DNA of 64,000 nucleotides, taken from the IMG/VR virus record IMGVR_UViG_3300020439_001360, positions 4,034 to 68,033 of that record; one strand, given 5' to 3'. Position 1 is the first letter of the stretch; each line of letters opens with the position of its first letter. The stretch is from a virus. Made by a program: the position numbers and the translations under genes. The notes below the pieces were generated by a model. That model made no database searches, was not told the origin of the DNA, and saw only the letters and a program-made list of their open reading frames with translations. Shown here in pieces: positions 13,505 to 39,476 of this stretch.

Positions 13505-13518
13505 TATAAATATAAATA
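13505..13518 (+). promoter_or_regulatory. Overlapping tandem T4-type late promoters
   Basis: TATAAATATAAATA upstream of gp8. Confidence 0.8.
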
Positions 13519-15449: not shown

Positions 15450-18400
15450 ATGCCACAGAAGACTAATCTTAAAGCCGCCCCATATTTTGACGACTACGAT
15501 TCAAGGAAAGATTTCTACAAAGTATTATACAGACCTGGTTACCCTGTACAGGGTAGGGAACTTAATACTACACAATCTATTCTACAGAATCAGATCGAAA
15601 GCTATGGCAAATATGCTTTCAAACAGGGCGACCTAGTTGTCCCTGGAGAGGTCGGTCTTAACAAAAAACTGGACTTTGTAAAACTATCGTCTGTTTCTGA
15701 AGTTGCTGTTAATGTTGATGGTGAATTAGTATATCAAAAGTATGACATCGATGGTCTGGTTGGTCAGAAGATCAACGGACTATCTTCTGGTGTTATTGCT
15801 ATTGTTCAAACTGTTGTAAAAGCAACAGAGAACAATTCTGATACATTATATGTAAAATATTTAACGGCAGGTGACAGTGGAGATGAAGAAACATTCCGCC
15901 AAGGAGAAACTCTCGAAGTTGTCGATGGCGTTAACTCACCTTTGCTTGTTGTTGGTACTGACGGCAGTGTTCTTCCTACTAGCGTTGCAGTCTTAAATCC
16001 TGATACAAGTGAGACTACATTTGTAGACAGTGGTGCCATGGGATTTGGTTCTGCTGTACAAGTAGAAGAAGGTGTCTATTTTGTAAATGGTTATTTCGTA
16101 AGAAATGATTCGGGTCTTATTGTTGTTGATGGTTATAGTGACAATCCTTCGGTAAAAGTTGGATTCAAAATTACCGAAACCCTAGTCACCCCAGAGGATG
16201 ACCCTTCTCTGTATGACAATGCATTTGGATCTTCTAACTATGCTGCACCTGGAGCACATAGATTACAGATCACACTATCTCTGGTCAAATATCAGTTTGA
16301 ACAGACTCCTGACAAGAATTTTATTCAACTCCTATCTATCAAGAATGGAGTTATCCAGAAACAAGTAAAGCAAGCAGCATATAATACTCTTGAGAATACT
16401 CTTGCTAGAAGAACATACGACGAATCTGGTGATTACGTAGTAGAGAACTTTGACGTTGATATTAGAGAGTTTTATCAAAGAGATGGAAACTTTGGTCTGT
16501 ATAGTGCTGGTGTCGATGGCACAGTAGGACCAAATGGTATTTCTGCAATGGAAGCTGCAGATAAACTAATTGCAACGGTTGGTGCTGGTAAAGCATACGT
16601 TCGTGGTTTTGAAATTGTCAACAAAGAAACCAAGTATCTGGAAGTTGACAAGGCAAGAGAAACCCTTGCCAGAGATAACGTAACGATCAAGTCTAATGGT
16701 CTTGCATCGTTTACACTAACAAATGTATACAATACGCTGCCACTAAACGCAGAAGGAGCAGATCTTACTGCATATCCAACTATTTTCCTCAACGCTGCAT
16801 ATAATGACGGAACTGTTGGATTTAATAATCTAGAAGAAGTCACTGATTACAGACAGACTCTTTCTAGAAGAGGACAAGGATTTGACAAAGATGATGCCAT
16901 TAAGACCATCTGGGTACAAGCATCTGCTGATCTAGGTCTTATTGACGATACTAGTATTTCTGATTCCCCTGGTTCTGGAAAACTAGATATCAGAACTCTT
17001 TACTTTGTTCAGACTAGAACAGACACTGGTGGTGTAGCAACAACAAACACTGTCAAGGTACTGTCATTTGCAAAAGTTACTAGACCTGAAATTGGTGATG
17101 TAAATGCACAATTCCTTCAGTTGACTGTTGCTGGTAGAAAAGATCTACTAGACGATTTCTTCCTTGAGTATGATGACAACGTAGCGACAAAAAGAAGATT
17201 CTTATACACTAGTCTCGCTAACGTCCAACAAGAAGTTAACAACCTAGGATACATTGTAGATTATTCAGACAGCATTGTTCCTGTTATTGGTGTAGCAAAA
17301 CCAAAAGACTTTACTCTTGTTAAGAGACCAGAGGGATTCAATCAGGATACAGATATCATTATCTCTCGTGGAAAACTTGCTGATGGCAGAGAAACATATA
17401 ACGGCAACTTTAATCTCTCTTACTTCAACCCAGTATTTTTCACCAGACTTTTTGTAGATTCTCCTGTCACTCCAGACTTCGCACCTGGTAAGTACATTTA
17501 TGGCACCACAAGCGGTGCATATGGCATTGTAGAAGGTTCTTCTAATGGTTATATGTCATTGGGCAGAAGTTTGTTTGTAAAGACCTTGTACGGCAATTTC
17601 GTGCCTGGTGAGACTATCAATAGTGAAGAAGGTTCGGTTCTGCGTATTCCAAAGAACAACACCATCTCCCACTTCGTTGTACAACGTCAAGGAACTGGTT
17701 ACGTTGCAGGATCGAAAATTAATGTTAACGGCACTCTATTTGAAAGTGCTGATATTGAAGTTGGTATTGATGGTGGTACTGTTTACAAGGTTGTAATTAA
17801 TAACAGAGATGCAATCCAAACCGAATTTGCTGCACCTCCTATTTGTGAGGTAACTGGAGCGAATACAATCGCTGTAGGTATTGCGCCTGTACTCTATAGA
17901 GATACAGTTCTGACATACACAGCACAAAATGTCAAGTCTCTGTATTCTGAATTTGGATCAAATAATAAATTTTCTGCTGATATCGAAACTACCGAAGGCA
18001 GTCTCTCCGATACGAGAAATGTAACCGAATCCACTTTCTCTGGTACGAAGGGATATAAGTTTATTGAGTGTAATGCGTTTGGATCTGATGCATCTTTAGT
18101 TCTTGTTCAGGGTGACATTATTCAGTTCAATGATGATACTGGAAGAGTAAACAAGTACACTGTCGAACTAGTAACTACACCAAGAGGAACAGATAAGTCT
18201 AGGATCTACTTGAATGGTGCTCTGCCTGATACAGTAACGGCAAAGACTGTCATTAGACAACGCGGCAAAGTCAACAATGGTTCTACATCTACCTTGATCT
18301 TCCCAACAGGAAGTAAAGAGGTAGGTAGTCTCGTCAAGTCAACCGAAGATACCAAATTAGTTTATTACATCAGAAGAGACTTTGTAACCACTGGTAGTGA

Positions 18401-21400
18401 TAACGGCGGTAACATTACTTTTGCTGCACAACTAGATTTTGGTACACAGAGGTTTACTCAATTCACAGAAAGAGACTTCCTCATCACTGTCTTGGACAAA
18501 GGTGGTTCTGACCTAGTAGAAACTGGAGATGTTGTTTATGTTTCTCCAGAGTTCGTTAAAATTCTGAATACTACAGATGCTACATCTGGATTGTCTTCTG
18601 GTAGTATCACACTTACCTTCCCTGGTAACTATTTTGGTAATAATGTAACCAACTTCCCCAAACTGAAGTTGACTGCAACCATCGAAGTTTCCAAAGGCAG
18701 ACCAAAACTTAAGACAGCAATCAAGAATAAGAGAATTATCATCCAGTCTCCTGGTGACCAGATTCTACCTCTTCGCGGTCTAGATTACGATAGCGACAGC
18801 ACTGAAGTATTCTCCTATTCAGATGCATTCCGTATCAGGTACATCTATGAAGGATCATCTTCTGCTCCCCCAACTGTTGATGTCAATGGCAATCTGGTTG
18901 TTGGCACAGATCTTACTAACAGATTTACTTTTGATGATGGACAAAGGGATACATTCTATGACGTATCCAGAATCGTTCTGAAACCTGGATTCAGTCCACC
19001 AACAGGTCAACTAGTTGTTGCTTTCGATTACTTTGAGCATTCTCAAGGAGACTTCTGCACTGTTGACTCTTACATCCACGAAGCAGGTGTAGTCCTAGAT
19101 GAGATTCCTGATTTCAACTCTAACGTTCATGGTAATGTAAGTCTGAAGAACGTTATTGACTTTAGACCAAAAGTAGACTCCACAGCAATTATTCCTGGAT
19201 ATCAGGATACATCTCTACTGTCACAAGCAGAGTATATCAACTTCATTGGACCTGGTGGTTCTGTTTCTAGTACACCATCTTCTGCAAGAAATCTTCCTTA
19301 TACTATCTCATTCAGTGAGTCACAGTATCTTGACAGAATTGATGGCGTCTTCCTCACCAAGAAGGGAGAATTTGTTGTCAAGAAAGGTAATGCATCTCTG
19401 AACCCAAGCAAACCAGAGATCATTGAGGATGGTATTCCTCTCTATTATATGTTCATCCCTGCGTTCACGAAGTCCAGCAAGGATGTAAGAATTACTCCTG
19501 TTGACAACCGTCGTTACACGATGCGTGACATCGGTAAACTGGAAAAGCGTATTGAGCGCCTTGAGTATTACACCACGTTGAGCATTCTTGAGCAGCAAGC
19601 ACTCAACATGCAGGTTAAAGATTCTCTTGGTATCGACAAAACAAAGAGTGGTTTCTTGGTTGACAACTATGAAACTCACAATGTCGGTAACGTCAAGTCT
19701 ATCGATCATCTCTGTTCTATCGACGCACAGCAGTCTGTATTGAGACCTCAATCTAAAGAAGACAGTTTTGCACTGAAGGAAGTCAACAGAAGAAATGATC
19801 AAAGAGTTATTTCTGGATATACAAATTCCAATGGCATAATTACACTGCCATACACCAACGTTACATATGCACAAAATCAATTTGCAACCAAGACAGTAAA
19901 TCCAAATCCATTTGTTGTTCTACAGTATGTTGGTGATGCTGCACTGATGCCAAACATTGATCAGTGGTATAACAGCTCGGTAGCGCCATTGGTAACCGAA
20001 AATAACACTAATCTGTTCTCGGTTTTCTTGGCAAAACAAGATGCACGAGTAGCATTCTCTAGTATCTACAATTCTTTTGTAATCAACTGGGTTGGTGTAA
20101 ACAAAACTTTCTACAACCTGAAGAGTTTTGCAGAAAACAATGGAAGATCTGCAGAATCTACTGTAAGCAGCGCATCTACTGGATCCTCTTCTAACGTCAG
20201 TCCACAAAACAATGAGATTGCGAAGGGAGTAGGATATAAGACTGTTAATGGAACTAATGTATCTAATGCACTGAAGTTCTATGCTAGATCTATTCCTGTT
20301 AAGTATGTCGTAAGACGTATGAAACCAAAGACGAAACTACATGTCTTCATGGAAGGTAGAGACATCGCTAGATGGATCAACCCAGACTCTAGATTTACTG
20401 GTGTTGCTGGAAACTCTTCTACCACATTTGGTAATGGCGTTACAACAGATGAGTACGGTAATGCTAGTGGTATCATTCTAGTACCATCGGGATATGCACC
20501 TAGAGAGAATTCTTTCTGGACTGGCAATATCGATACCATGCAATATGATGATACCTCCGAAGAAGTATACTTCTCCACAGGTGTCAAGACAATTAGATTC
20601 ACCTCTAGTTCTACTGACGCTCCTATTACTGATGTAAATGGAGTCAGTTCTTTTGCTGAAGTCAAGTTCTATGCTACTGGTATTCTTCCAGAGAATCCTG
20701 CATCTATCATTTCTACTGCACCAGCATTCTTCAAAGCAAACGAAGGTGTACAGGAGATCGATAGCAATACCGAGAACAAAGAAAGACCAAATCCAATGGC
20801 ACAGACTTTCAAAGTCGAAAGCTTTGAAGGTGGTATGTTTGCAACAGGCGTCGATCTGTTCTTCTCCGAAAAGAGTGCTACTGTTCCATTGAGAGTTTAT
20901 CTCTCTAACGTAGAAGCAGACAAACCTGGTAAGTATATCCTTCCTGGATCTGTCAAGACTCTCTATCCAGATACTTTCCTTAAGGTATATTCTTCTGGAA
21001 ACATCACTATCCAACAAGGCGAAGACATCACTGGTAACAGAAGTCTTGCCAAAGGACCCATCGCTAAAGTTCTAGATAGAAATAATTTTGAAGTTACTCC
21101 TTCCAGCAATGGAGAAATCTCTCTAACGAATGAACAGACTTATACGTTCGTCTTAAGTAATCACAATGGAAGAGACTTCTTGCAGAATGAAGATCTAACC
21201 ATCGGCACAGTTACTGCATACAACAATGCTAACAATGCCACAGTGGGTCTGAAAATTGCTAAAGACTCTGGTCGCGTGTCGAAACTGAATATTACTAATT
21301 TGGGTTCTGGATATGAAAGTGCAACCATCACTATTGAAAGTCCACAACTACCTGGTGGAAGCAATGCTACTGGATCTGTCAAAGTGTCTGGTGGTCAACT

Positions 21401-23570
21401 ATTCTTTGCCGATGTAAGTCTTGCTGGTAGAGGATATACCGAAGCACCATCTGTTGTTATCAGAGGAACTGGTGCTAGTAACAACGGTGCTGTTATTGAG
21501 TCTGAAATTGAGATTGACGAACCCGCTGTAAGAATGGGTGTTGCAATTGACCCAGAGGGTGGAATCAGATCTACCACACCCACACGTTTCAACTTCGAGT
21601 ATCCTGTTTATCTTCAGAATGATACCGAGTATGCACTCAATATTGAGTGTGACGCTGTTGAATATAAACTGTGGTCTTCCAAGTTGGGAGAAGAAGATAT
21701 TTCTTCTGGTCTGGTTGTTAATGCACAACCTCTCCTCGGATCTCTATTCAAGTCCCAAAATACTGCTAACTGGGAAGAAGATCTATTTGAGGACATTAAG
21801 TTCACTCTATACAGAGCAGAATTCGATACCTCTAGAGATGGCGAACTAGTTATCAAGAATGAAGATCTAGGTTACGAAAAACTACAATCCGATCCTTTCG
21901 AGACTTATGCTCTCGCTAACAGCACAGCATCTTCTCCTCTATTCAAAAACAACAGCAATGTTGTTAAGGTGTACCACAGAGATCATGGTTTTGAAACCAC
22001 TGGAGATTCCAAAGTATTCTTTAGAGGACTACCCGATTTTGCTGGATATGATGCTATCGACCTAGAGTCTACGTTGTTCCAAGTTTCTAATGTAGGTATT
22101 GACTCTTACAATATCATTGGACCAACTAGAGCATCTGACACGGGATTCTTTGGTAACGATGCAGTTCTAGCATCTTACAATAGAAAGTACGAAAAACTCT
22201 ATGCACAAATTCCTTATCTACAAGTTAGTGGAACTTCTATTGACAGCATGGTGAAAACCACTAATGTTGTTCCTGTTGATTCTAATACCACCAACTATAC
22301 CTCATATTCTATGACAGATTATGAGACCACTTTCTTGAATGAAGAACAGTATTTCTTGAATCAAAAGTTGATTGCATCTCCAATCAACGAAAGTCTCAAC
22401 AATTTACAAGGATCGTTGATGTATAAGTTGACTCTGAAGTCCGAGAAGTCTCATCTTTCTCCTGTTGTTGACTTAAGATCTGCTTCTGCGAAGACTGTCA
22501 CCAATAGAGTAGAAAATCCTACAGGAACCGAAGGAAGATATGGTAAGAGATATCAAGAAGTTCAACTGTTCCCTGTATACAGATTCACTGTACAAGGAAA
22601 CGAAAGTGGTGGCAATCTGGTTCCTATCACCATCGATCAAAATGTCACTGGCGTAACTTCTGGCGCAGAGTCTGAAGTCCTACGTGTACGTGATAATGAC
22701 ATCTTCGTCAAGATCAAAAATTCTGTAAACTTTGTCTTGGGAGAGACTCTATATTTCAGCACCCAGTCTGCTTCTGGTGGTGATCTAGATGGAATTACTG
22801 TAGTGGTTGCAAACTCTGGAATCTTTAACGAAGTACCAGAATTTGTAGTTGGTTCTACTATTACTGCATTTAACCCTTCGGTAAGAACTGAAAAGTATGA
22901 TAATAAAGTCAGTGGTAAAGTAATCTTCTGGGATTCAAACACCAAGACATTAACTCTTGAAAACGACAAGAGACCTATCAATGATGATTATACTAGTGAA
23001 ATTACATTGGGCAGTGACTTTGCTAGAACTGCAACCACAAGTCTACAAACATCTGATGTCTTTAGAGTCGGTGATCTAATCGACTTTAAGAATGCTTCTT
23101 TCGAGACATCCAAGTTTGCTGAAATCAAGGCAATGACGTTTGGAGATGGTGTTGACTTTGTTGCAGAAAATGGTTCTGTAAACACCTCTGGTGTATCCAA
23201 GTATGTAACTAAAGAGATCTCCCTAGCAAGTTCTGCTTCTTCACTGAATACTAAATTGACTGTTAATGCAACTGATGTTAATAACATCCAAGTTCTGTAC
23301 AAGATTAAACCAGAAGCATCACAACAAAAGTTTGATGATATTAGTTGGACCTACTTCAATGGAGATGGTTCTTCTGATAATGATGTGATTGCTACGGCAC
23401 AGAACAGCATCTCTGGACAGTATGAATCTCAAGATGCATATCAAGAACTATCATTCACTGCGAATGATATTCCTGACTTCGCATCCTTTGCTATCAAGAT
23501 TGTTATGAAATCTGATAATCCATCTTATGTCCCCAAGATTCAGGACATGAGAACTGTTGCTTCTTTCTAA
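15450..23570 (+). CDS. VrlC-like (DUF4815-type) large virion structural protein
   Basis: MPQKTNL...PYFDDY...K.FYKVL.RPG.PVQ.RELN..QS.LQ.Q; APGAHR; LARRTYDESGDY; RYTMRDIGKLEKRI.RLEYYT.LS.LE. Confidence 0.88.
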   Translation: MPQKTNLKAAPYFDDYDSRKDFYKVLYRPGYPVQGRELNTTQSILQNQIESYGKYAFKQGDLVVPGEVGLNKKLDFVKLSSVSEVAVNVDGELVYQKYDIDGLVGQKINGLSSGVIAIVQTVVKATENNSDTLYVKYLTAGDSGDEETFRQGETLEVVDGVNSPLLVVGTDGSVLPTSVAVLNPDTSETTFVDSGAMGFGSAVQVEEGVYFVNGYFVRNDSGLIVVDGYSDNPSVKVGFKITETLVTPEDDPSLYDNAFGSSNYAAPGAHRLQITLSLVKYQFEQTPDKNFIQLLSIKNGVIQKQVKQAAYNTLENTLARRTYDESGDYVVENFDVDIREFYQRDGNFGLYSAGVDGTVGPNGISAMEAADKLIATVGAGKAYVRGFEIVNKETKYLEVDKARETLARDNVTIKSNGLASFTLTNVYNTLPLNAEGADLTAYPTIFLNAAYNDGTVGFNNLEEVTDYRQTLSRRGQGFDKDDAIKTIWVQASADLGLIDDTSISDSPGSGKLDIRTLYFVQTRTDTGGVATTNTVKVLSFAKVTRPEIGDVNAQFLQLTVAGRKDLLDDFFLEYDDNVATKRRFLYTSLANVQQEVNNLGYIVDYSDSIVPVIGVAKPKDFTLVKRPEGFNQDTDIIISRGKLADGRETYNGNFNLSYFNPVFFTRLFVDSPVTPDFAPGKYIYGTTSGAYGIVEGSSNGYMSLGRSLFVKTLYGNFVPGETINSEEGSVLRIPKNNTISHFVVQRQGTGYVAGSKINVNGTLFESADIEVGIDGGTVYKVVINNRDAIQTEFAAPPICEVTGANTIAVGIAPVLYRDTVLTYTAQNVKSLYSEFGSNNKFSADIETTEGSLSDTRNVTESTFSGTKGYKFIECNAFGSDASLVLVQGDIIQFNDDTGRVNKYTVELVTTPRGTDKSRIYLNGALPDTVTAKTVIRQRGKVNNGSTSTLIFPTGSKEVGSLVKSTEDTKLVYYIRRDFVTTGSDNGGNITFAAQLDFGTQRFTQFTERDFLITVLDKGGSDLVETGDVVYVSPEFVKILNTTDATSGLSSGSITLTFPGNYFGNNVTNFPKLKLTATIEVSKGRPKLKTAIKNKRIIIQSPGDQILPLRGLDYDSDSTEVFSYSDAFRIRYIYEGSSSAPPTVDVNGNLVVGTDLTNRFTFDDGQRDTFYDVSRIVLKPGFSPPTGQLVVAFDYFEHSQGDFCTVDSYIHEAGVVLDEIPDFNSNVHGNVSLKNVIDFRPKVDSTAIIPGYQDTSLLSQAEYINFIGPGGSVSSTPSSARNLPYTISFSESQYLDRIDGVFLTKKGEFVVKKGNASLNPSKPEIIEDGIPLYYMFIPAFTKSSKDVRITPVDNRRYTMRDIGKLEKRIERLEYYTTLSILEQQALNMQVKDSLGIDKTKSGFLVDNYETHNVGNVKSIDHLCSIDAQQSVLRPQSKEDSFALKEVNRRNDQRVISGYTNSNGIITLPYTNVTYAQNQFATKTVNPNPFVVLQYVGDAALMPNIDQWYNSSVAPLVTENNTNLFSVFLAKQDARVAFSSIYNSFVINWVGVNKTFYNLKSFAENNGRSAESTVSSASTGSSSNVSPQNNEIAKGVGYKTVNGTNVSNALKFYARSIPVKYVVRRMKPKTKLHVFMEGRDIARWINPDSRFTGVAGNSSTTFGNGVTTDEYGNASGIILVPSGYAPRENSFWTGNIDTMQYDDTSEEVYFSTGVKTIRFTSSSTDAPITDVNGVSSFAEVKFYATGILPENPASIISTAPAFFKANEGVQEIDSNTENKERPNPMAQTFKVESFEGGMFATGVDLFFSEKSATVPLRVYLSNVEADKPGKYILPGSVKTLYPDTFLKVYSSGNITIQQGEDITGNRSLAKGPIAKVLDRNNFEVTPSSNGEISLTNEQTYTFVLSNHNGRDFLQNEDLTIGTVTAYNNANNATVGLKIAKDSGRVSKLNITNLGSGYESATITIESPQLPGGSNATGSVKVSGGQLFFADVSLAGRGYTEAPSVVIRGTGASNNGAVIESEIEIDEPAVRMGVAIDPEGGIRSTTPTRFNFEYPVYLQNDTEYALNIECDAVEYKLWSSKLGEEDISSGLVVNAQPLLGSLFKSQNTANWEEDLFEDIKFTLYRAEFDTSRDGELVIKNEDLGYEKLQSDPFETYALANSTASSPLFKNNSNVVKVYHRDHGFETTGDSKVFFRGLPDFAGYDAIDLESTLFQVSNVGIDSYNIIGPTRASDTGFFGNDAVLASYNRKYEKLYAQIPYLQVSGTSIDSMVKTTNVVPVDSNTTNYTSYSMTDYETTFLNEEQYFLNQKLIASPINESLNNLQGSLMYKLTLKSEKSHLSPVVDLRSASAKTVTNRVENPTGTEGRYGKRYQEVQLFPVYRFTVQGNESGGNLVPITIDQNVTGVTSGAESEVLRVRDNDIFVKIKNSVNFVLGETLYFSTQSASGGDLDGITVVVANSGIFNEVPEFVVGSTITAFNPSVRTEKYDNKVSGKVIFWDSNTKTLTLENDKRPINDDYTSEITLGSDFARTATTSLQTSDVFRVGDLIDFKNASFETSKFAEIKAMTFGDGVDFVAENGSVNTSGVSKYVTKEISLASSASSLNTKLTVNATDVNNIQVLYKIKPEASQQKFDDISWTYFNGDGSSDNDVIATAQNSISGQYESQDAYQELSFTANDIPDFASFAIKIVMKSDNPSYVPKIQDMRTVASF

Positions 23571-31963: not shown

Positions 31964-31990
31964 TCTTCTGAAATTGAGTTTTACATTATG

Positions 31991-32026
31991 GGGGGATTGC
32001 TTCACTGGCGATCCCCCTATTTTTTT
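31991..32026 (+). terminator. Rho-independent terminator
   Basis: GGGGGATTGC-ttcactg-GCGATCCCCC hairpin followed by TATTTTTTT. Confidence 0.85.
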
Positions 32027-32042
32027 AACTTGGCTGTAGTCT

Positions 32043-35000
32043 ATGGTATTCTCCTACGCTGGTACTGGAAGAATGCCCCAGTTTGTTGCTGTGAAGGCAC
32101 TGGGGTTAATTTCTTACAGCTATACATCAGCGATTGAGGAGCAGTTTTTATATCTAGATTTTGGTGCGCTGGGTCGTGCATATTGGGTAATTGCAGACCA
32201 CGCAAGTAAAGTAATTGAAGATTACAAAGATGATCAAATAGTTGACTTGGTAGAGTCGGGCGGTCCCCTGAACCAAGTTGATTATGGATCTATCACAGAA
32301 GTAGAAGCATACGCCACGGATGACTGGGGCGAAATCACAGTCACATCAAATATTCAGGCAATGGGTCGTACCCATTTCCACTCGCTTACCACCTGGTCTG
32401 TTATCAAGACCTGGGTTGGTACAGGAACCGTCTGGGAGATGGACGGTGGCACCAGGTATCGACTGGATGCTCCTTGGATTGGTTCTGGTACGCTGCGACC
32501 ATACGGTTCTGCCAACACTCATTATGTACCTGCGATTGCTACGGAGGGACTACTACCCCTCCGTAGTGACACTAAAGTTGCTTATGCTCCTAACTGGAAT
32601 GCATTCGGCACCCTGTTCAGCGGTAGCTTTGCTGGAGAGGCTGTCACCAAGGTATTCCCAGAGGATCCTGATTATACGGTCAAACAAGGTTCACTTACTA
32701 CGTTAACTGCTGCGGATCTGTCTAGCGGTTACGGTGCGGTATATGAAGGATCTGTATTCTATTCTACCAGTGGAGCTGGCACCACTGCTACTAATGGATT
32801 TGCTGTAGGTCCACACGTCAGATTTGGCACAGCCACCGATCCTGGAGGTTCTAGTAGCACATTCAGAAAAGTTGAATATGATCTAGATCTCACTAATGTT
32901 GAGGAGATCACCTTTAGACTCGTCATGGGTAACGGGTCTAATGGCGGTGAGACTCCAGATAATGGTGAAGACCTATGGATGAGATTCCTATATACAGGTC
33001 TCTCTGTTGCTGATGCATCTAGAAAATTACTAGACAATACAGAAACTACTTACACGACTCCTGGCGATAAGACAGTTACTGTCCCAGTAGTTGCAAGAAA
33101 ACCTTATCAGACGATTAGAATTTACCAGTTAACATGGTCTGGTACATATGAATTTGATCACTACGGATTCATATCACTATCATATGGCAGCGAAGTTGTT
33201 GTCGGTGGAGTTGGTGATCAACGCAATAGTCTATTCAATGTTGTTGGTGACGCTAGTGTCAGCTTCAGACCTAACTGGGTTGGTTCTGGTGTCCTGTTTA
33301 ACTTCAGCACTACTACCTTCAAACAGACATATGATTATGTCGGTGAAGGAACTCTATTTGGATTCTCTTCCACAGAAGAAAGAGTCGTCTGGGATTACAA
33401 CAATTCCAGCATCGATTACTTTACCTATGAGAACTTTGGATCGGTTGCCGAGTCGCCAATCGAATCCATCACGATTCAGTCGATTGCTAATGAGACAATC
33501 CAGAGTCGTGCAAACGAAAGAATTATTGATCTAGTTGTATCTGGATCTACTTCTGGTGCATTCCTAGACTTTGGTAGTATTCTCACTGACGGTGAGCAGA
33601 CCCCATCTACTGTTGGACTCGATTGGGGTCACATTCTCACGAACCAGACAGATTATCCATTCGGTCTGTTCCCAATCAGTGGTACTGCCAAGCAAATATT
33701 TACTCCCAACTTTGTTGGTTCTGGATCTCTATTCGCTTTTGTCAGTGGTCGTGGCAGAACGAAACCCAGATGGATTGCTTATGTCAACATCGGAATCTTT
33801 GGTGCTGCGAAGACCAACTTCAGCTTGCTGCACATTGGTTCTGGTTCTCTATTCAGCATCAACAATGCAGACGACAGCAGAGCGTATGCATATAGAGGTT
33901 CTGGTGCCCTCTACGCCTTCTCTGGCGCTGCCGAGGCAGTCGGGTTCAACCCACCAGAAGACACCGCTATCCTGCCACTACAAGGTGCTGCAAACGTTGC
34001 CTTTGCTCCCAACTGGATTGCAGAAGGTACAGTCAAGGCAGAAGGCGCAGCGGTCGAGAGACAGACAGATCATTACAAAGGATCTGGAACTCTATTCAAC
34101 TTCGAGACTGCTGTCGAGAAAATCACATATCATTACAGCAGCACATCTAATGATATCTTCCAGTATCGCAACTACGGATCTGTTGCTGATCAACCAATTG
34201 AATCTATTACGATTCAATCTATTGCTAATGAGACCATTGAAAGTCGTAAGGACGACAGAATTATTGACCTGGTAGTAGGTGGTACTACTTCTGGATCTTA
34301 TCTGGATTATGGTCCAATTCTTATCGACGGCGAGGACGCTCCAGAGACTGTTCGCGAAGACTATGGTTCCATCATGGAATCCATTTCTCGCTACGCAATG
34401 GGCGATCTGTTGGTACATGGTACTGCAGGAGTCAGGAGAGAGTTCTCCTACGTTGGTAAAGGTGACCTGTTTGCATTCATCGAGGGTCGTGGTAGAACGA
34501 AACCCAGATGGATTGCCAATGTCAACATCGAGGTCAAAGGCGAGGCTCAAGATGCAGTCGTCAAACGCTTCATTGGCGACGGCAATCTATTCAACTTCGA
34601 GAAGGCAGAAGAAAGAAGAACCTTTGGTTACGAAGGTCAAGGAACCTTCTCCACATCTGGCGAAGCTTCTATTGCATACGAGAAAGCACCATATCGTGGA
34701 TTTGTCCTCTTCGATGTTACTGGCGACACGAGAATTGCATTCGTACCGAACTTCAATGGTTCTGGTGTTGCCACCATCGATGTCGGGCACGTCGAGAGAA
34801 CTACATTCAGCGAGGTTGGATCTGGTGTCCTCTTCGACATGGGCAACCTTGTCGAGAGAAGAACGTATCACTACAGTCATACTTCCGACACTATATTCAC
34901 TCCTCTGGATTATGGTTCGGTTGGTGCCAATCCAATCGACTCCATTACGATCCAATCTATCGCTAATGATACGATTGAAAGTCGTAAGGACCAGAGAATT

Positions 35001-38000
35001 ATTGATCTTGTAACCACAGGTTCTACCTCTGGTTCTTACTTCGATTATGGATCTGTCAGTGACTTCTATCCATCCATCACGGATGATTACGAAGGTATCA
35101 CCGAGACAGTCACCAGATATGCAATGGGTGGTCCACAAATCAGTGGTGCTGCCGATGTCAACTTCAGACCTGTCTACGTTGGTTCTGGAGACATTACTAT
35201 CAACGTCAGCACCATCGTCAGAGTGCTGCCCAGATGGATTGCCTTTGTGCCCATCGACTTTACAGGTGCTGCAACAGACACCTTCACCAAAGCATACAAG
35301 GGTTCTGGTATTGTTCCCCTACCTGTCAGCACGACAGATACCAGAAGCTTTGCATACGAAGGCAAAGGAGAACTATTTGCTATCAACGGTGGGGAGGAAG
35401 CATTTGCATTCGACTATCCACGTCAAGATCCTGTATTTACAATTACAGGCGAAGCAAATGTTGCATACGTTCCCAACTGGAATGGATCTGGTACGGCAGT
35501 CCTTTCTGGTACAGCAGTCGAGAGAGTTGCAGTCAATCCTCCTGCGCGTGGAGATCTCTTCAGCTTCAACAATCTCGATGAGCGTAGAACATATCATTAC
35601 AACTCCAGTTCTATTGATCTACTCAACAGAATCAGCTATGGTTCTGTTGCTTCGCCAGTCATTGATTCTTGGGTCATTGCTGACCATGCAACCAAGGTCA
35701 TTCAAGACTACAGAAATGATAAACTCGTCGATCTTGTCGAGGGAACTGGTGGCGACTACTTCGATTATGGATTCCTAGAACAAGAAAATGTTGGTGGTCT
35801 TCCCAACATCAATACCCCAGATGCTACTGAAGATTATCAGTTCATCATTGATCCTGAACTTGGTGCATCTAGATATCCATTCGGTGTTCTATTCCGTCAC
35901 TTTGAATCTGAAGTTGTTATTGGCATTAGTCTGCGTCACATCGCAGTCAACGAAAAACCAACCGTCAAGATTGGCGGCAAGGTATTCGTCAAACTTCCCA
36001 ACAAGCACCAGGGCGAAGGTGTTCTATTCAGCACTGGCGGCGCTGCAGAAACTGCAACATTCAGCGAAGTCAAGGACGGTCTATTCGAGTTTGTTGGATT
36101 CGCTGCAACCAGAAGAATCCCCAACTTCAATGGCGGCGGTACTATCAGATTGGATGGTGCATCCAGCAGTGCAGTTGCATTCGCAGGATTCCAAGAGAAT
36201 ACAATCGTCCTACGTGGTGTTGCTACTGTCAAGTACACGCCATCCTACACTGGAACTGGATTTATCTCCACTCTGTCTGGCGCTGCCGAGGCAATCACAG
36301 CAAGTCCAGACGATCTCTTCGGTCTATTCGACTTTGTTGGAACAGCAGCAGAGAGGACATCTGCAGCACATCTTGGTTCTGGTTCTCTGTTTGCACTATC
36401 TGGTGCAGGCGAAGCAGTCGCTGTTGCAGAAGAGAAGAGAAATCTTCTCAAAATCAGCGGCAACGCTGGCGAGAGATTCATCCCGAACTTCAATGGTTCT
36501 GGTACTCTATCTGTACTATCTGGCGCAGCAGAATCCAGAACAGCAAGTCCAGACGATCTGTTCACCCTGTTCGACTTTACTGGTCGTGGTACAGTCAAGG
36601 CAACTGTTGCCGAATCTGGATTCGCTCTTCTCTCTGTATCTGGCACAACAGAACCAGAAATTCTCACGTTTGCAGAGCAACCATTTGGCACTGCTACGAT
36701 CAGCGGCAACGCTGGAGAGAGATTTGTTCCCAACTGGATTGGTTCTGGTACTATCGCAACCCTATCGGGTGCAGCAGAATCTGCAACATTCAATCCTCTG
36801 GAGAGACAGCTTCTGTTCTCCATGGGCGGCATTGCTACAGAAGTATTTGCTGCAGCACCCGCAATCGAAGGAACAGAGATCAAACTCTCTGGAACCACCG
36901 CTCCAGAAATTCGCACATTTGCAGAGCAACCACTCGGAGACATCTTTGTCGGTGGTCTTGCAGAATACGTTCACGTCGATGTATACGGTGGATTCGGTAC
37001 TCTATTCTCTGGAGGATTTACTTCCGAGTCTGTCACATTCAAGATTCCTCCAACCAGAGAAGCAGACATTCTCTTCCGTGGAGAGGCAGTCGAGCGTGTT
37101 GCATTCAATCCACCAGAAGAAACTGCACATCTTCTCCTTTCTGGAGAGGTTGTCATTCCTCTTCGCACATTTGCAGAGCAACCAACCGTTCGTGTTGCTA
37201 TCAGCGGTGTTGCAATCGAGAAGAACACCGAAGTATATGTTGGAACTGGTGCTATCTTCTCCAACGGATTCACCTCCGAATCTGTTACCAGAAAACTTCC
37301 AGAGTTCACAGCACACCTCAATGTTACTGGTCTCGCAGAAGAGAGAGCAACATTCAGAGAGATATTCTTTGGTTCCCTCTTCAAGTTCAGAGGATCTGCA
37401 GGTCGCGCACTTCTCACGTTTGCAGAGCAACCACAGACTCTATCCAAGATTAGTGGTGTTGCTGTTACCACCAGAGCAAGAGACTTCGTTGGCGAAGGCA
37501 ACATTGCAACTCTTTCTGGTGCTGCCGAGGCAGTCACCTTCAATCCTCTGGAAAGAGATCTGCTCTTCGATGTTACTGGCATCGCTGAAACCAGATACTC
37601 CCGCACTTGGGTTGGTTCTGGTCAAATCAAGGTTTATCCAGAAGCAGCAGACATCAGATTCATCCCCAACTGGAATGCCGAAGGTGTCATTCCCGTCAGT
37701 GGTGTTGCAGTCGAGCGTGTCGCAAGAGACGAGGTTGTTCAGGTCAACATCGGAACATTCTCTGGTGCAGCAGAGTCTGTTACCTTCAATCCTCTCGAAA
37801 AGGATATGCTGTTCTCCATCGGAGGCAGAGCAGCATACAGAACTTCTGTATCGGAAGTCAAACTTGCCAACGCAAGACTCTTCGCAGACGACAACAACGG
37901 AACAACCACCAAGATACACGTTGGTTCTGGAACAGCAACTCTATCTGGTGCTGGTCGCATTGTCATTACTCTCTCCTACATTGGAGACATCAGAATTGGT

Positions 38001-38981
38001 ACATTCTCTGGTGCAGCAGAAGCAGTCACCTTCAATCCACTGGAGAAGGATCTACTATTCTCTGCATCTGGTATTGCAACCCTACGTTCCACTCGCGCTT
38101 ACTCTGGAACTGGTTCTCTCTTTGCAATCAACGGTGCAGCAGAATCCAGAACCGTTGTTCCACCAGCAGATGGTCTGTACGCGATCAACGGCGAAGCAAA
38201 TATTGTTATTACTCTCTCCCATGTTGGCGATGGAAGTCTATTCAGCTTTGTCAAGGGTGCAGAAAGCTTCACTTACGATTACGTCGGAGAACAAGTTCTC
38301 TTCGATCTATCTGGCGAAGCAATCGAGAGAATCACCAATGTATATGCTGGATCTGGTTCTATCTTCTCTATCGGCGGTGCTGCAGAAAGAGTCGCTTTTG
38401 TACCAAGTCTCCTCGCAGATGTCAACATCAGTGGTGTTGCAGCGACACCAAGATCCAGAGTATTCACTGGTTCTGGAGATCTATATGCATTCGGTGGTGC
38501 AGCAGAGTCCAGAACAATTACTTACGAGAACGTCGCAATCTTCGACTTCCTCGGTCAAGTCAAACCTGCCATTACCAAGGTACATGTTGGCGATGGAGAG
38601 ATCGAAGTTACTGGCGAAGCAGCAGTTGCATTCGCCAGAGCACCTTACTCTGGTCAGGCAGAAGTTCAACTATCTGGCACAGCAACAGAAAGCACAACTG
38701 CCAACCCACCAGAAGAGGGCACAGAGATTGCAACTTCTGGCGAGGCAAAGGTTCTTCGCTCCTTCGGTTACGAGGGATCTGGTCAACTCAAAGTACACGG
38801 CGACACCATTATCGGTATTTCTCTCCGTATCTTTGGTACTGGATCTATCAAGGTCGATGTTCGCACCAGATACTTCCCACTACTCCAGCACAGAGCAGAT
38901 GTTCATATCTACATCGCTGGCAGCGCAGCAACTGTCAAGATTGATGTTGCTCCACCACGTACCTATGGATGGATTATTTAA
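32043..38981 (+). CDS. Large repetitive structural protein, 2312 aa (fibre scaffold or ruler-like)
   Basis: About 40-aa G.G.LF...GAAE repeats interleaved with about five DYGS...IIDLV domains. Confidence 0.8.
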   Translation: MVFSYAGTGRMPQFVAVKALGLISYSYTSAIEEQFLYLDFGALGRAYWVIADHASKVIEDYKDDQIVDLVESGGPLNQVDYGSITEVEAYATDDWGEITVTSNIQAMGRTHFHSLTTWSVIKTWVGTGTVWEMDGGTRYRLDAPWIGSGTLRPYGSANTHYVPAIATEGLLPLRSDTKVAYAPNWNAFGTLFSGSFAGEAVTKVFPEDPDYTVKQGSLTTLTAADLSSGYGAVYEGSVFYSTSGAGTTATNGFAVGPHVRFGTATDPGGSSSTFRKVEYDLDLTNVEEITFRLVMGNGSNGGETPDNGEDLWMRFLYTGLSVADASRKLLDNTETTYTTPGDKTVTVPVVARKPYQTIRIYQLTWSGTYEFDHYGFISLSYGSEVVVGGVGDQRNSLFNVVGDASVSFRPNWVGSGVLFNFSTTTFKQTYDYVGEGTLFGFSSTEERVVWDYNNSSIDYFTYENFGSVAESPIESITIQSIANETIQSRANERIIDLVVSGSTSGAFLDFGSILTDGEQTPSTVGLDWGHILTNQTDYPFGLFPISGTAKQIFTPNFVGSGSLFAFVSGRGRTKPRWIAYVNIGIFGAAKTNFSLLHIGSGSLFSINNADDSRAYAYRGSGALYAFSGAAEAVGFNPPEDTAILPLQGAANVAFAPNWIAEGTVKAEGAAVERQTDHYKGSGTLFNFETAVEKITYHYSSTSNDIFQYRNYGSVADQPIESITIQSIANETIESRKDDRIIDLVVGGTTSGSYLDYGPILIDGEDAPETVREDYGSIMESISRYAMGDLLVHGTAGVRREFSYVGKGDLFAFIEGRGRTKPRWIANVNIEVKGEAQDAVVKRFIGDGNLFNFEKAEERRTFGYEGQGTFSTSGEASIAYEKAPYRGFVLFDVTGDTRIAFVPNFNGSGVATIDVGHVERTTFSEVGSGVLFDMGNLVERRTYHYSHTSDTIFTPLDYGSVGANPIDSITIQSIANDTIESRKDQRIIDLVTTGSTSGSYFDYGSVSDFYPSITDDYEGITETVTRYAMGGPQISGAADVNFRPVYVGSGDITINVSTIVRVLPRWIAFVPIDFTGAATDTFTKAYKGSGIVPLPVSTTDTRSFAYEGKGELFAINGGEEAFAFDYPRQDPVFTITGEANVAYVPNWNGSGTAVLSGTAVERVAVNPPARGDLFSFNNLDERRTYHYNSSSIDLLNRISYGSVASPVIDSWVIADHATKVIQDYRNDKLVDLVEGTGGDYFDYGFLEQENVGGLPNINTPDATEDYQFIIDPELGASRYPFGVLFRHFESEVVIGISLRHIAVNEKPTVKIGGKVFVKLPNKHQGEGVLFSTGGAAETATFSEVKDGLFEFVGFAATRRIPNFNGGGTIRLDGASSSAVAFAGFQENTIVLRGVATVKYTPSYTGTGFISTLSGAAEAITASPDDLFGLFDFVGTAAERTSAAHLGSGSLFALSGAGEAVAVAEEKRNLLKISGNAGERFIPNFNGSGTLSVLSGAAESRTASPDDLFTLFDFTGRGTVKATVAESGFALLSVSGTTEPEILTFAEQPFGTATISGNAGERFVPNWIGSGTIATLSGAAESATFNPLERQLLFSMGGIATEVFAAAPAIEGTEIKLSGTTAPEIRTFAEQPLGDIFVGGLAEYVHVDVYGGFGTLFSGGFTSESVTFKIPPTREADILFRGEAVERVAFNPPEETAHLLLSGEVVIPLRTFAEQPTVRVAISGVAIEKNTEVYVGTGAIFSNGFTSESVTRKLPEFTAHLNVTGLAEERATFREIFFGSLFKFRGSAGRALLTFAEQPQTLSKISGVAVTTRARDFVGEGNIATLSGAAEAVTFNPLERDLLFDVTGIAETRYSRTWVGSGQIKVYPEAADIRFIPNWNAEGVIPVSGVAVERVARDEVVQVNIGTFSGAAESVTFNPLEKDMLFSIGGRAAYRTSVSEVKLANARLFADDNNGTTTKIHVGSGTATLSGAGRIVITLSYIGDIRIGTFSGAAEAVTFNPLEKDLLFSASGIATLRSTRAYSGTGSLFAINGAAESRTVVPPADGLYAINGEANIVITLSHVGDGSLFSFVKGAESFTYDYVGEQVLFDLSGEAIERITNVYAGSGSIFSIGGAAERVAFVPSLLADVNISGVAATPRSRVFTGSGDLYAFGGAAESRTITYENVAIFDFLGQVKPAITKVHVGDGEIEVTGEAAVAFARAPYSGQAEVQLSGTATESTTANPPEEGTEIATSGEAKVLRSFGYEGSGQLKVHGDTIIGISLRIFGTGSIKVDVRTRYFPLLQHRADVHIYIAGSAATVKIDVAPPRTYGWII
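36669..37433 (+). repeat. Intragenic direct repeat TTTGCAGAGCAACCA (FAEQP), four copies
   Basis: Copies start at 36669, 36918, 37170 and 37419 (spacing 249, 252, 249 nt). Confidence 0.85.
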
Positions 38982-38984
38982 TAG

Positions 38985-38992
38985 TATAAATA
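38985..38992 (+). promoter_or_regulatory. T4-type late promoter
   Basis: TATAAATA 25 nt before the ATG at 39018. Confidence 0.8.
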
Positions 38993-39017
38993 ACATTGGT
39001 ATCCTAAATTAATTTTA

Positions 39018-39476
39018 ATGACTACCCAGGTACAGTTTAGAAGAGGTACTACTGCTGAACATGCTCACTTCGCGGGAGCGCAGGGTGAGTTGACTATTGA
39101 TACTGATAAGAATATGGCGGTTGTCCATGATGGACAAACGAATGGTGGATTTGACGTTTTTCGTGCTCGGTGGGAGTATCTAAATCAAAGTGTCACACTT
39201 GGCACAAGTCTTCGTTATCTCGTGGACTCGTCGGGTGGACCACTCACACTGACTCTGCCACTATATAATAATCAGTTGGTTCCCAAAGCAGGGGACACTA
39301 TGGAGTTCATTGATATTAATTTTACGTGGGATACAAATAATGTAACAATAATCGATCCAATTGGAAGAGAATTTCAAAACACTTTTGGAGTTATTTCCAG
39401 TCCTTTAGTATTCGACTTGAAAGGAGCGAGAGTGCAACTAATTTGGGACGGTAACTACTGGAGGGTAATTGTATGA
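39018..39476 (+). CDS. Fibre attachment/connector protein
   Basis: QVQFRRGTTAEH..F.GA.GE.T.DTDK...VHDG N-terminus (Mtd/hyaluronidase-N-like); DS.GG..TLTLP...GD....ID C-terminal domain. Confidence 0.72.
   Translation: MTTQVQFRRGTTAEHAHFAGAQGELTIDTDKNMAVVHDGQTNGGFDVFRARWEYLNQSVTLGTSLRYLVDSSGGPLTLTLPLYNNQLVPKAGDTMEFIDINFTWDTNNVTIIDPIGREFQNTFGVISSPLVFDLKGARVQLIWDGNYWRVIV

What the first reader, a model, noticed from the sequence alone, without database searches (positions are those of the whole stretch)
33596..35578. Stop-triplet depletion switches on and off with the protein's domain architecture
Seen: upstream blocks encoding the G.G.LF..GAAE repeats are also nearly stop-free in all forward frames (33596-34147: one TAG; about 34497-34963: none; 35087-35578: none). 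The interleaved DYGS...ESITIQSIAN...IIDLV domains (for example about 34148-34280 and 35580-35929) contain many off-frame stops. The ORF track shows consecutive +1-frame ORFs at 33148, 33571, 34279, 35047 and 35788. Inference: the constraint belongs to the repeat segments rather than to the gene's overall composition, and the stop-rich domains could act as frame checkpoints.
Basis: partly seen in the sequence, partly recalled or inferred. Interest (0 to 1): 0.7.

Follow-up and report, generated by a model that had tools for sequence, protein, structure and literature searches.

The report
Stop-free zone in cyanophage fibre gene
The distal repeat region of a giant virion gene of a marine cyanophage has been cleared, by selection on silent codon choices, of every stop triplet in all three forward reading frames, a conserved oddity whose purpose is still unknown.

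Summary
The gene is window 32043..38981 (+), 2312 aa, family phrog_11522 of unknown function, in the tail-fibre module of an S-CAM1-like Synechococcus myovirus. Its repeat segments lack TAA/TAG/TGA in both alternative forward frames. In the last 1017 codons there are 0 (+1) and 3 (+2) off-frame stops; synonymous-codon shuffles expect 18.6 and 64.6. Amino-acid order, codon usage and GC3 therefore do not predict the pattern. A third-position T stands before codons starting AA/AG/GA in 3 of 219 cases, against 319 of 797 elsewhere. TGG, TGY and TAY are not depleted.

The zone is unique: 29 other window ORFs and 92 other S-CAM1 ORFs are near expectation. It is conserved in relatives down to about 26-37% identity and nearly always abuts the gene's 3' end, but some family members lack it.

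Not supported:
- overlapping gene
- non-triplet repeat
- past frame swaps
- "checkpoint" role of the stop-rich domains, which simply have normal stop density

Best reading: purifying selection against termination by out-of-frame ribosomes. Why that would be harmful is unknown. The closest analogue is the stop-free reverse frame of ambigrammatic narnaviruses.

The parts
32043..38981 (+). Gene for a 2312-aa giant repeat protein (phrog_11522, unknown function) in the tail-fibre / virion-structural module of an S-CAM1-like cyanomyovirus
   Evidence: ORF and translation. Full-length match to phrog_11522 (E 0), with neighbours matching tail fibre, virion structural and tail protein phrogs. 87% aa identity to S-CAM1 over residues 376-2312. 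No Pfam family and no PDB relative.
32043..33593 (+). N-terminal part with ordinary off-frame stop density
   Evidence: +1 18 vs 24.7+-2.3; +2 48 vs 46.6+-4.4. Residues 154-382 resemble stretches annotated baseplate wedge subunit/initiator in other cyanomyoviruses (32-38% identity; depositors' names).
33594..34147 (+). Stop-free repeat segment A (one TAG at 33893, frame +2)
   Evidence: +2 1 vs 12.8+-2.9.
34148..34276 (+). Island: small conserved domain (..ESITIQSIAN..IIDLV..) with normal stop density
   Evidence: 11 stop triplets. +2 9 vs 5.7+-1.7.
34277..34963 (+). Stop-free repeat segment B (three +2 stops at 34457, 34463, 34493; none in 34494-34963)
   Evidence: +2 3 vs 20.4+-3.7.
34964..35084 (+). 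Island: second copy of the small domain
   Evidence: 8 stop triplets. +2 6 vs 4.2+-1.6.
35085..35578 (+). Stop-free repeat segment C (no stop triplet in any forward frame, 494 nt)
   Evidence: +2 0 vs 13.1+-2.7.
35579..35927 (+). Island: WVIADH..DYRNDKLVDLV..DYG domain, the last stretch with off-frame stops
   Evidence: 14 stop triplets. +2 13 vs 11.2+-2.6.
35928..38941 (+). C-terminal stop-free zone, 3014 nt, about 20/41/82-aa repeats (GSG.LF..GAAE, TFAEQP); only two stop triplets (TAG 37451, TGA 37586, both frame +2)
   Evidence: +1 0 vs 23.1+-4.0 and +2 2 vs 72.1+-6.6 with gene-wide codon usage. The depletion is specific to the stop triplets. Conserved in relatives.
35788..39012 (+). 1074-codon open +1 frame (mechanical ORF, not a gene) that runs 31 nt past the real stop
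   Evidence: Its ATG is not conserved. No Pfam or PHROG family.
38942..38981 (+). Last 13 codons (..DVAPPRTYGWII) and the stop; off-frame stops reappear here
   Evidence: +2 stop at 38942. The C-terminal motif is conserved across the family.

Best explanation
Shown: the distal repeat region of this virion gene is kept open in all three forward reading frames by purifying selection on silent sites. Wherever the next codon begins AA, AG or GA, the preceding codon avoids a third-position T. Codons ending TA or TG are never followed by the base that would complete a stop. The protein is untouched, and only the three stop triplets are removed in this way (T|TT is also depleted, but separately; see the Against line).

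Inferred: the only cellular reader that groups TAA, TAG and TGA while sparing TGG, TGY and TAY is translation termination. So what is being avoided is termination by ribosomes that are out of frame on this mRNA, whether after a slip or after an internal out-of-frame start. Such ribosomes run on to within about 40 nt of the normal stop instead of releasing after roughly 15 codons.

Why early release would be harmful is not shown. There are three candidates, none of which I can separate here:
- Truncated fragments made of independently folding repeats could be stable and compete for assembly, whereas a long nonsense tail would mark the chain for degradation or block incorporation.
- Ribosomes kept on the long 3' part could shield the mRNA, as proposed for ambigrammatic narnaviruses.
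- Out-of-frame read-through chains could themselves have a use.
For: 1. Size and specificity. Frame +2 in the C-terminal 1017 codons: TGA 2 vs 31.3, TAA 0 vs 18.6, TAG 1 vs 14.7. The controls are not depleted: TGG 74 vs 48.7, TGC 56 vs 38.2, TGT 43 vs 24.5, TAT 17 vs 19.3, TAC 24 vs 30.6.
2. The effect holds across amino acids, so it is not one inherited motif. Val before AA/AG/GA codons is GTC in 17 of 17 cases, against 13 of 67 elsewhere. Gly is never GGT (0 of 26, against 54 of 92). Phe is TTC in 20 of 20.
3. It is strand-specific. The longest minus-strand stop-free run in the window is 114 nt.
4. It is not repeat ancestry. DNA self-matches are short (22-183 nt, 72-100% identical). Four-fold sites before 'danger' codons do change between lineages (0.14-0.42 differ), mostly A<->C and A<->G and rarely to T, whereas C<->T and A<->T dominate at other four-fold sites.
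5. It is conserved. Of 36 IMG/VR loci, 28 have at most 12 +2 stops against 61-81 expected in the last 1000 codons. The same holds for S-CAM3, for L036 at about 35% identity with a 2205-nt run, for S-SSM7 with a 1196-nt run and for L047/L048 with 1215-1314 nt. In these lineages the zone ends at the gene's 3' end.
6. It is unique. The 29 other window ORFs have z between -5.2 and +1.7, against -7.8 and -10.4 for this gene. Among the 93 S-CAM1 ORFs of at least 200 aa, this gene has obs/exp 0.35 (z -13.1), the next is 0.73 and the median is 0.96. Of the 11 longest stop-free runs in the 197.5-kb genome, 8 lie in this gene.
7. Precedent. In narnaviruses a stop-free frame is kept by selection while its protein appears non-functional and translation itself matters (abstracts of PMC8155312 and PMC8316113). 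Forward frames can be cleared of stops by synonymous changes (PMC6884476, section 14).
Against: - Nothing here measures out-of-frame ribosomes. The inference rests on the identity of the avoided triplets.
- Some family members with the same repeat architecture lack the zone: L040, L052 and L055 have stop ratios of 0.78-0.89 in their last 800 codons. Any harm intrinsic to truncated repeat proteins should apply to them as well.
- In the window lineage the middle segments are cleared although the islands close both frames again. This fits a per-site cost better than a 'must reach the end' model.
- The gene has a strong terminator-like hairpin just upstream and no TATAAATA of its own, so it may be weakly expressed, which makes an energetic cost argument weak.
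- The downstream gene has its own TATAAATA 6 nt after the stop in nearly all relatives, which weakens a translational-coupling motive.
- Depletion of slippery T|TT contexts does not track the stop purge: L052 has T|TT 0.05 with stops at 0.78. It cannot be counted as support.
Confidence: 0.4

Rival explanations
1. Tolerance of frameshift mutations (evolvability). The open frames let ±1 indels change the distal fibre sequence without truncating it, as proposed for PE_PGRS genes.
For: The gene is a repeat-rich, fast-evolving virion protein: aa identity 0.85-0.91 while only 0.16-0.22 of four-fold sites differ versus S-CAM1. All three frames end within about 70 nt of each other. PE_PGRS genes are described as depleted in out-of-frame stops, with continued translation after frameshifts (PMC13328622, passages read).
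Against: There are 0 cross-frame protein matches among the three frames of five homologous genes. The non-multiple-of-3 gaps in DNA alignments of 14 lineages are paired within 35 nt or less in the window-L008 comparison where I mapped them, and lie in divergent stretches; the two places I inspected are gapless at the protein level. All 36 loci keep frame 0 intact in the zone, and the single frameshifted contig (L014) breaks between aa 517 and 529, outside it. There is no homopolymer of 6 or more, and T runs of 4 or more number 1 against 13.1 expected. The extreme C-terminus (..PPRTYGWII), which any frameshift would lose, is conserved across the family. Contigs cannot show rare variants.
Confidence: 0.13
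2. One or two real overlapping genes, or programmed frameshift isoforms, are encoded in the +1 and +2 frames.
For: The alternative ORFs are very long (1074 codons in +1; 445 and 507 codons in +2) and are conserved as open frames across genera. This is the signal used to nominate overlapping genes in viruses (PMC6188560, listing and abstract only). A +2 stop at column 37449 is shared by 8 of 10 lineages, and the other 2 have one 27 nt upstream.
Against: The +1 ATG at 35788 is not conserved, and the first start differs by lineage. Four-fold sites in the zone diverge as fast as in the N-terminus and islands (for example 0.18 vs 0.22 and 0.16 against L001), although each such change alters position 2 of a +1 codon. 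Alternative-frame identity (76%) is below frame-0 identity (87%). By eye, the +2 translation is rich in Arg, Cys and Trp (no composition was computed). No Pfam or PHROG family matches. No X_XXY_YYZ heptamer is present, 0 against 2.6 expected.
Confidence: 0.1
3. Avoidance of the triplets as RNA or single-stranded DNA motifs for a reader unrelated to translation, such as a nuclease, a regulator or a primase-type enzyme acting on the complementary TTA/CTA/TCA.
For: Each site seems to carry its own cost: the middle segments are cleared even though the islands re-close the frames. The purge is strand-specific.
Against: No known reader has exactly this three-triplet set (my recall of toxin endoribonuclease motifs, not a call). 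The boundaries coincide with protein-domain boundaries, and the purge is confined to one gene of 93. A diffusible factor would be expected to act genome-wide.
Confidence: 0.1
4. A passive by-product of amino-acid composition, GC3, codon usage, or recent amplification or gene conversion of one stop-free unit.
For: The region is internally repetitive, with exact 23-nt matches and a 15-mer present four times.
Against: Shuffles that keep the protein and local codon usage expect 20-fold more stops. GC of the gene is 0.46-0.49. The repeats are diverged, and the codon-context rule holds for every amino acid. The state persists between lineages with about 50% of four-fold sites changed and between genera at 26-37% aa identity.
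Confidence: 0.03

Closest known systems
Ambigrammatic narnaviruses (stop-free reverse ORF over the RdRp gene)
   Same: A kilobase-scale alternative frame is kept free of stops by synonymous choices in the main gene and is conserved across diverse relatives. The encoded protein appears not to be functional, and translation itself is proposed to matter, for example by ribosomes protecting the RNA (abstracts of PMC6884476, PMC8155312 and PMC8316113). The same group showed on paper that forward +2 frames can always be cleared synonymously, and +1 frames mostly (PMC6884476, section 14).
   Different: Here both forward frames are cleared, not the codon-aligned reverse frame. The setting is one segment of one gene of a 198-kb dsDNA phage of bacteria, not a whole RNA genome. 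The reverse strand is not cleared. No experiment exists.
PE_PGRS genes of Mycobacterium tuberculosis (depleted out-of-frame stops, proposed frameshift tolerance)
   Same: Gly-rich repeat genes for surface proteins with few off-frame stops, so that translation continues after a frameshift (PMC13328622, passages).
   Different: By the authors' own regression that depletion is 'largely a passive consequence of GC pressure'. Here GC is 0.46-0.49 and the deficit is about 20-fold beyond codon usage. No frameshifted alleles or mutational hot-spot motifs were found.
Ambush hypothesis / hidden stop codons
   Same: It concerns selection on off-frame stops through synonymous codon choice and the fate of frame-shifted ribosomes (PMC2996987, abstract in the listing only).
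   Different: The sign is opposite. That hypothesis predicts enrichment so that wrong-frame translation is aborted early. Here off-frame stops are removed almost completely.
Overlapping (overprinted) viral genes detected by unexpectedly long alternative ORFs
   Same: Long alternative-frame ORFs, significant against codon permutation (PMC6188560, abstract in the listing only).
   Different: There is no conserved start, no drop in synonymous divergence, both alternative frames are open at once, and the +2 composition is implausible by eye.
Ohno's internally repetitious coding sequences built from oligomers whose length is not a multiple of three (recalled; no paper read)
   Same: Repetitive coding DNA that is open in all frames.
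   Different: All 30 of 30 internal DNA repeats are in codon register, and the alternative frames show no similarity to frame 0.

Membership tests
phrog_11522 (phage protein family of unknown function) | Full-length match to the family profile | tested here: met
   E 0, 3862.6 bits, residues 1-2312 on profile positions 1-2130 of 2130.
Overlapping gene in an alternative frame | Conserved start codon for the alternative ORF | tested here: not met
   The ATG at 35788 comes from AAT GTT, and L001 has AAT ATT there. The first ATG or any start lies at different codons in the 10 lineages.
Overlapping gene in an alternative frame | Reduced synonymous divergence of the main frame where the frames overlap | tested here: not met
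   The share of four-fold sites that differ in the zone equals that in the N-terminus and islands in 9 pairwise comparisons (for example 0.18 vs 0.22/0.16; 0.48 vs 0.44/0.51).
Overlapping gene in an alternative frame | Alternative-frame protein with relatives or a plausible composition | tested here: not met
   0 families in Pfam and PHROGs for P0002, P0003 and P0004. By eye, the +2 translations are rich in Arg, Cys and Trp (not quantified).
Programmed -1 ribosomal frameshift site | Slippery heptamer X_XXY_YYZ in frame | tested here: not met
   0 found in each of three parts of the gene, against 0.9, 2.0 and 2.6 expected. I did not search for a stimulatory RNA structure.
Contingency / frameshift-tolerant hypervariable gene (PE_PGRS-like) | Few off-frame stops | tested here: met
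Contingency / frameshift-tolerant hypervariable gene (PE_PGRS-like) | Indel-prone tracts and frameshifted alleles among relatives | tested here: not met
   The longest homopolymer is 5 nt, and T runs of 4 or more are 1 vs 13.1 expected. There are 0 cross-frame matches and no true frame-changing gaps at the places inspected. Rare variants could not be seen because only contigs were available.
Ohno-type non-triplet oligomer repeat | Repeat unit length not divisible by three, so that copies are read in different frames | tested here: not met
   30 of 30 self-matches have offset mod 3 = 0. The only blastp hit of the alternative frames to frame 0 has E 6.4.
Ambigram-like stop-free frame kept by selection (narnavirus type) | Stops removed by synonymous choices, conserved across diverged relatives, with the alternative protein unconstrained | tested here: met
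Ambigram-like stop-free frame kept by selection (narnavirus type) | Open frame on the reverse strand, codon-aligned, covering the genome; translation of it required | tested here: not met
   The reverse strand is not cleared (212, 86 and 51 stops in the three reverse frames). The requirement for translation cannot be tested with these tools.
T4-type tail fibre proteins | Similarity to a tail-fibre family or fold | tested here: inconclusive
   Only the neighbourhood speaks for it (tail fibre, tail protein), plus an N-terminal stretch that resembles proteins which depositors call baseplate wedge subunits. Pfam, PDB sequences and the Atlas give nothing. Two AlphaFold runs failed (pLDDT 26.7 and 34.9).

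The most novel reading that the evidence does not exclude
Cyanomyoviruses maintain a dedicated 'no-termination zone'. Over the last 1-3 kb of one giant virion gene, selection forbids ribosomes to terminate in any frame. This would mean that out-of-frame translation on a bacterial-virus mRNA is frequent or consequential enough to shape hundreds of silent sites, either as error management that works opposite to the ambush idea or as ribosome shielding of a long mRNA. It would be a forward-strand, DNA-phage counterpart of the narnavirus ambigram.
Probability: 0.35. Interest if true: 0.85.

Novelty: new variant of a known kind. Interest (0 to 1): 0.8.

Why it matters
Silent sites are usually thought to be shaped by codon usage, RNA structure or overlapping genes. 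Here about 220 codon junctions in one gene obey a rule whose only visible content is that no stop may be formed in another frame. The rule has held across several cyanomyovirus genera and is absent from the other 92 long ORFs of the S-CAM1 genome.

This is a clean natural test case for two questions: what out-of-frame ribosomes cost a virus, and whether 'stop-free but non-coding' frames exist outside narnaviruses. S-CAM1 and its host WH7803 are in culture (per the GenBank record), so synonymous recoding and ribosome profiling could be applied directly.

There is also a practical point. Gene finders and overlapping-gene screens will flag 1000-codon alternative ORFs here that are almost certainly not genes.

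Tried and rejected
- **Frame checkpoints.** The islands have the expected, not excess, stop density.
- **Translational coupling to the downstream gene.** A TATAAATA motif lies 6 nt after the stop in nearly all relatives, and the +1 stop sits close to the next ATG only in the S-CAM1-like lineages.
- **Common cause of the T|TT and stop purges.** In the zone, T|TT is 2 vs 34.1 and TT|T is 6 vs 23.6. But the other genes of the phage also show it (0.56), and L052 shows T|TT at 0.05 without the stop purge. I dropped it as evidence.
- **The 15-mer TTTGCAGAGCAACCA as a cis element.** It occurs 4 times in the window (0.01 expected) and in 36 of 40 loci. Only 26 of 46 FAE[QKS] motif instances use exactly these codons, with TTT/TTC and GAG/GAA varying, so codon preference plus descent suffices.
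- **Structure.** Two AlphaFold2 jobs on the C-terminal 1017 aa failed (13 and 28 sequences; mean pLDDT 26.7 and 34.9). I ran no fold search because the models are meaningless.
- **Other protein look-ups.** The Atlas gave only unnamed viral clusters with scores at or below 0.89, PDB sequence search gave 0 hits, and Pfam gave 0.
- **Sequencing runs.** All 24 listed runs are kept as contigs. Laying X3, X4, X6 and X19 showed only closely paired indels in diverged relatives and no uncompensated frameshift, and rare variants cannot be seen this way. Contigs from an RNA library (X19, 95-99% alike) cover parts of the gene, which does not prove transcription.
- **Distant loci.** The search for related loci with the 28-sequence alignment was not possible because it has no conserved stretch; I used single proteins instead.
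- **Literature.** Searches for prior reports found none for phages or cyanophages. Supplements were not consulted.

Full report
**What is there**

The finding lies inside one ORF, window 32043..38981 (+), 2312 aa. It matches phrog_11522 (unknown function) over its full length and sits among genes matching tail-fibre, virion-structural and tail-protein families. It has no Pfam family and no relative among PDB sequences. Its nearest named relatives are 'hypothetical proteins' of Synechococcus myoviruses:
- S-CAM1: 87% aa identity over residues 376-2312.
- S-CAM3: about 37% over the C-terminal 1026 residues.

The window's contig is 68 kb, so this is an S-CAM1-like T4-type cyanophage. A whole-library search finds 229 cluster representatives at E <= 1e-3, many of them proteins of 1300-3800 aa. 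It is therefore a large family of giant repeat proteins.

The protein has three parts:
- An N-terminal non-repeat part.
- A middle with three roughly 245-aa modules, each holding a small conserved domain (..ESITIQSIAN..IIDLV..DYG..).
- About 1000 residues of roughly 20/41/82-aa repeats (GSG.LF..GAAE, TFAEQP), ending in a conserved ..PPRTYGWII.

Two AlphaFold runs gave no usable model (pLDDT 26.7 and 34.9). The fold and function remain unknown. 'Fibre-like virion protein' is an inference from the neighbourhood.

The pattern is larger than reported:
- Frame +1 has 22 stops in the gene and none after 35776.
- Frame +2 has 86 and only 3 after 35927.
- The stretches 35928-37450 and 37587-38941 contain no TAA/TAG/TGA in any forward frame. 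The window average is one per 22 nt, and the longest such run outside the gene is 206 nt.

**It is not composition**

I shuffled synonymous codons among identical amino acids within each region. This keeps the protein, all amino-acid pairs, codon usage and GC3. Results are observed vs expected:

| Region | Frame +1 | Frame +2 |
|---|---|---|
| C-terminal 1017 codons | 0 vs 18.6+-2.7 | 3 vs 64.6+-5.7 |
| Middle | 4 vs 11.6 | 33 vs 70.0 |
| N-terminus | 18 vs 24.7 | 48 vs 46.6 |

Where a deficit is reported, 0 of 2000 shuffles reached the observed value. Restricting shuffles to 30-codon blocks still expects 10.3+-2.1 and 40.5+-4.2 against 0 and 2.

The deficit is specific to stops. In the stop-free segments the junction ratios are:
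- Depleted: T|AA 1/31.1, T|AG 3/27.1, T|GA 2/50.2, TA|A 0/9.6, TA|G 0/11.3, TG|A 0/3.7.
- Not depleted: T|GG, T|GC, T|GT, T|AC and T|AT lie between 0.81 and 1.62 of expectation.

A third-position T precedes AA/AG/GA codons in 3 of 219 cases, against 319 of 797 elsewhere. The rule holds for each amino acid separately.

**It is not repeat ancestry or a non-triplet repeat**

Internal DNA matches are short and diverged, and all 30 are in codon register. The alternative frames do not resemble frame 0. Four-fold sites in front of 'danger' codons do change between lineages, but among A, C and G. Elsewhere C<->T and A<->T changes dominate. That is the signature of continuing purifying selection against T at these sites.

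**It is unique to this gene**

- The 29 other ORFs of the window are near expectation, z from -5.2 to +1.7. The extreme is a mild 16% deficit in 15450..23570.
- In the complete S-CAM1 genome, this gene has obs/exp 0.35 (z -13.1). The next of 93 ORFs has 0.73, and the median is 0.96.
- Of the 11 longest stop-free runs in that genome, 8 are in this gene.
- The reverse strand is not cleared.

**It is conserved, but not universal**

- Of 36 IMG/VR loci, 28 have at most 12 +2 stops against 61-81 expected in the last 1000 codons. Many of these loci are near-duplicates; about ten lineages are distinct.
- Three loci (L026, L028, L031) are partial. Two (L032, L033) are cut contigs and not comparable. 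Two (L038, L039) are cleared only over the last 1.3 kb. One (L040) is not cleared at all.
- S-CAM3, L036/37, the syntenic S-SSM7 gene and the 3400-aa L047/L048 all have runs of 1.2-2.2 kb that abut the 3' end.
- S-SCSM2R has only 598 nt. L050 has a 701-nt run short of the end. L052 and L055 have none.
- The +1 frame is usually cleared further upstream than +2.

The on/off pattern in the middle of the gene, which is what the finding describes, exists only in the window/S-CAM1 lineage. In L008, L015, L017, L023 and L029 the same region has ordinary stop density.

**The islands are not checkpoints**

They carry roughly the expected number of off-frame stops. They are ordinary sequence between extraordinary sequence.

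**What it is not**

- *An overlapping gene.* The +1 start is not conserved. Synonymous divergence is not reduced. Alternative-frame identity is below frame-0 identity. The alternative translations match no family, and the +2 translation looks Arg/Cys/Trp-rich by eye.
- *Programmed frameshifting or a contingency locus.* There are no slippery heptamers and no long homopolymers.
- *A record of frame swaps.* There are 0 cross-frame matches. The apparent non-triplet gaps I inspected are alignment artefacts in divergent but equal-length protein stretches. One contig of 36 (L014) has a frameshift, but outside the zone.
- *Translational coupling.* The next gene has its own TATAAATA motif (that this motif is the T4-type late promoter is recalled knowledge).

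**Most likely mechanism**

Shown: selection on silent sites keeps both alternative forward frames open.

Inferred: only translation termination treats TAA, TAG and TGA as one class and spares TGG, TGY and TAY. So the thing avoided is termination of out-of-frame ribosomes.

Not shown: why that matters. I give 0.4 to this translation-level reading as a whole. Three sub-variants could not be separated:
- Truncated fragments built of independently folding repeats act as assembly poisons.
- Ribosomes shield the long mRNA.
- Read-through products have a use.

Against it stand several points: family members without the zone, the cleared middle segments that the islands close again, the probable low expression (a terminator-like hairpin at 31988-32030 with no promoter motif before the start), and the complete absence of expression data.

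**Comparison with the known**

The best functional analogue is the ambigrammatic narnavirus reverse ORF. There a stop-free frame is kept by synonymous choices, its protein is apparently non-functional, and translation itself is required. The same authors noted that forward frames could be cleared in the same way (abstracts, plus section 14 of PMC6884476).

PE_PGRS genes share the low off-frame stop count, but there it is mostly a GC effect. The ambush hypothesis predicts the opposite sign (abstract only).

Five searches found no report of such a purge in phages.

**Verdict**

This is a real, strong, conserved and gene-specific constraint without an established cause. It is a new variant of the 'stop-free frame kept by selection' kind.

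Noticed in passing
window 31988-32030 and 38985-38992: A 14-bp-stem terminator-like hairpin with a T run ends 13 nt before the giant gene's ATG, and there is no TATAAATA motif in front of the gene. The 8 TATAAATA copies in the window (2.4 expected) lie at 13505, 13511, 30479, 30494, 38985, 43163, 46728 and 52679, where checked against the ORF list between genes. The giant gene may be transcribed only by read-through from the promoter-like motifs at 30479/30494.
   Followed up: partly
window 36669, 36918, 37170, 37419: The 15-mer TTTGCAGAGCAACCA (FAEQP) occurs four times exactly, about 250 nt apart, and is found in 36 of 40 loci including S-CAM3. Across lineages 26 of 46 motif instances use these exact codons, with TTT/TTC and GAG/GAA varying, so codon preference plus descent probably explains it.
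   Followed up: yes
window 37449-37453 (ATT AGT) and 37422: The one +2-frame stop in the middle of the C-terminal zone is shared by 8 of 10 lineages. The 2 that lack it (L019, L035) have another one 27 nt upstream (GCT GAA). This may be chance or a required closure of the +2 frame; it is unexplained.
   Followed up: partly
L014:5065-5101: One metagenomic contig carries a frameshift in this gene between residues 517 and 529, relative to its 99%-identical sibling L012. It could be a sequencing error or a natural broken allele, and it lies outside the stop-free zone.
   Followed up: partly
window, all large genes; L052: A T before TT-starting codons is avoided throughout the phage (183 vs 326 expected in 12 other genes) and very strongly in this gene family (ratios 0.05-0.40), independently of the stop purge. 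T runs of 4 or more number 1 vs 13.1 expected in the C-terminal region.
   Followed up: partly
window 15450-23570 and 4401-13496: Two other giant structural genes show a mild deficit of +2-frame stops (281 vs 335.8, z -5.2; 332 vs 368.0, z -3.3) but no stop-free run longer than about 125 nt.
   Followed up: no
window stop-free segments; L041:17889-18950: The Leu codon TTA is never used in the stop-free segments (0 of 98 Leu codons, against 87 of 802 in other genes) and TTG only 3 times, although S-CAM1 carries tRNA-Leu genes annotated with anticodons TAA and TAG.
   Followed up: no
window 33594-39020, run X19: Contigs from a seawater metatranscriptome library, 95-99% alike, cover several pieces of the gene. 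This is compatible with transcription in nature but does not prove it, since DNA carry-over is possible.
   Followed up: partly
window gene vs L001, L030: Amino-acid divergence is high relative to silent divergence (aa identity 0.85-0.92, with only 0.12-0.22 of four-fold sites differing). This suggests relaxed or diversifying selection on the protein.
   Followed up: no
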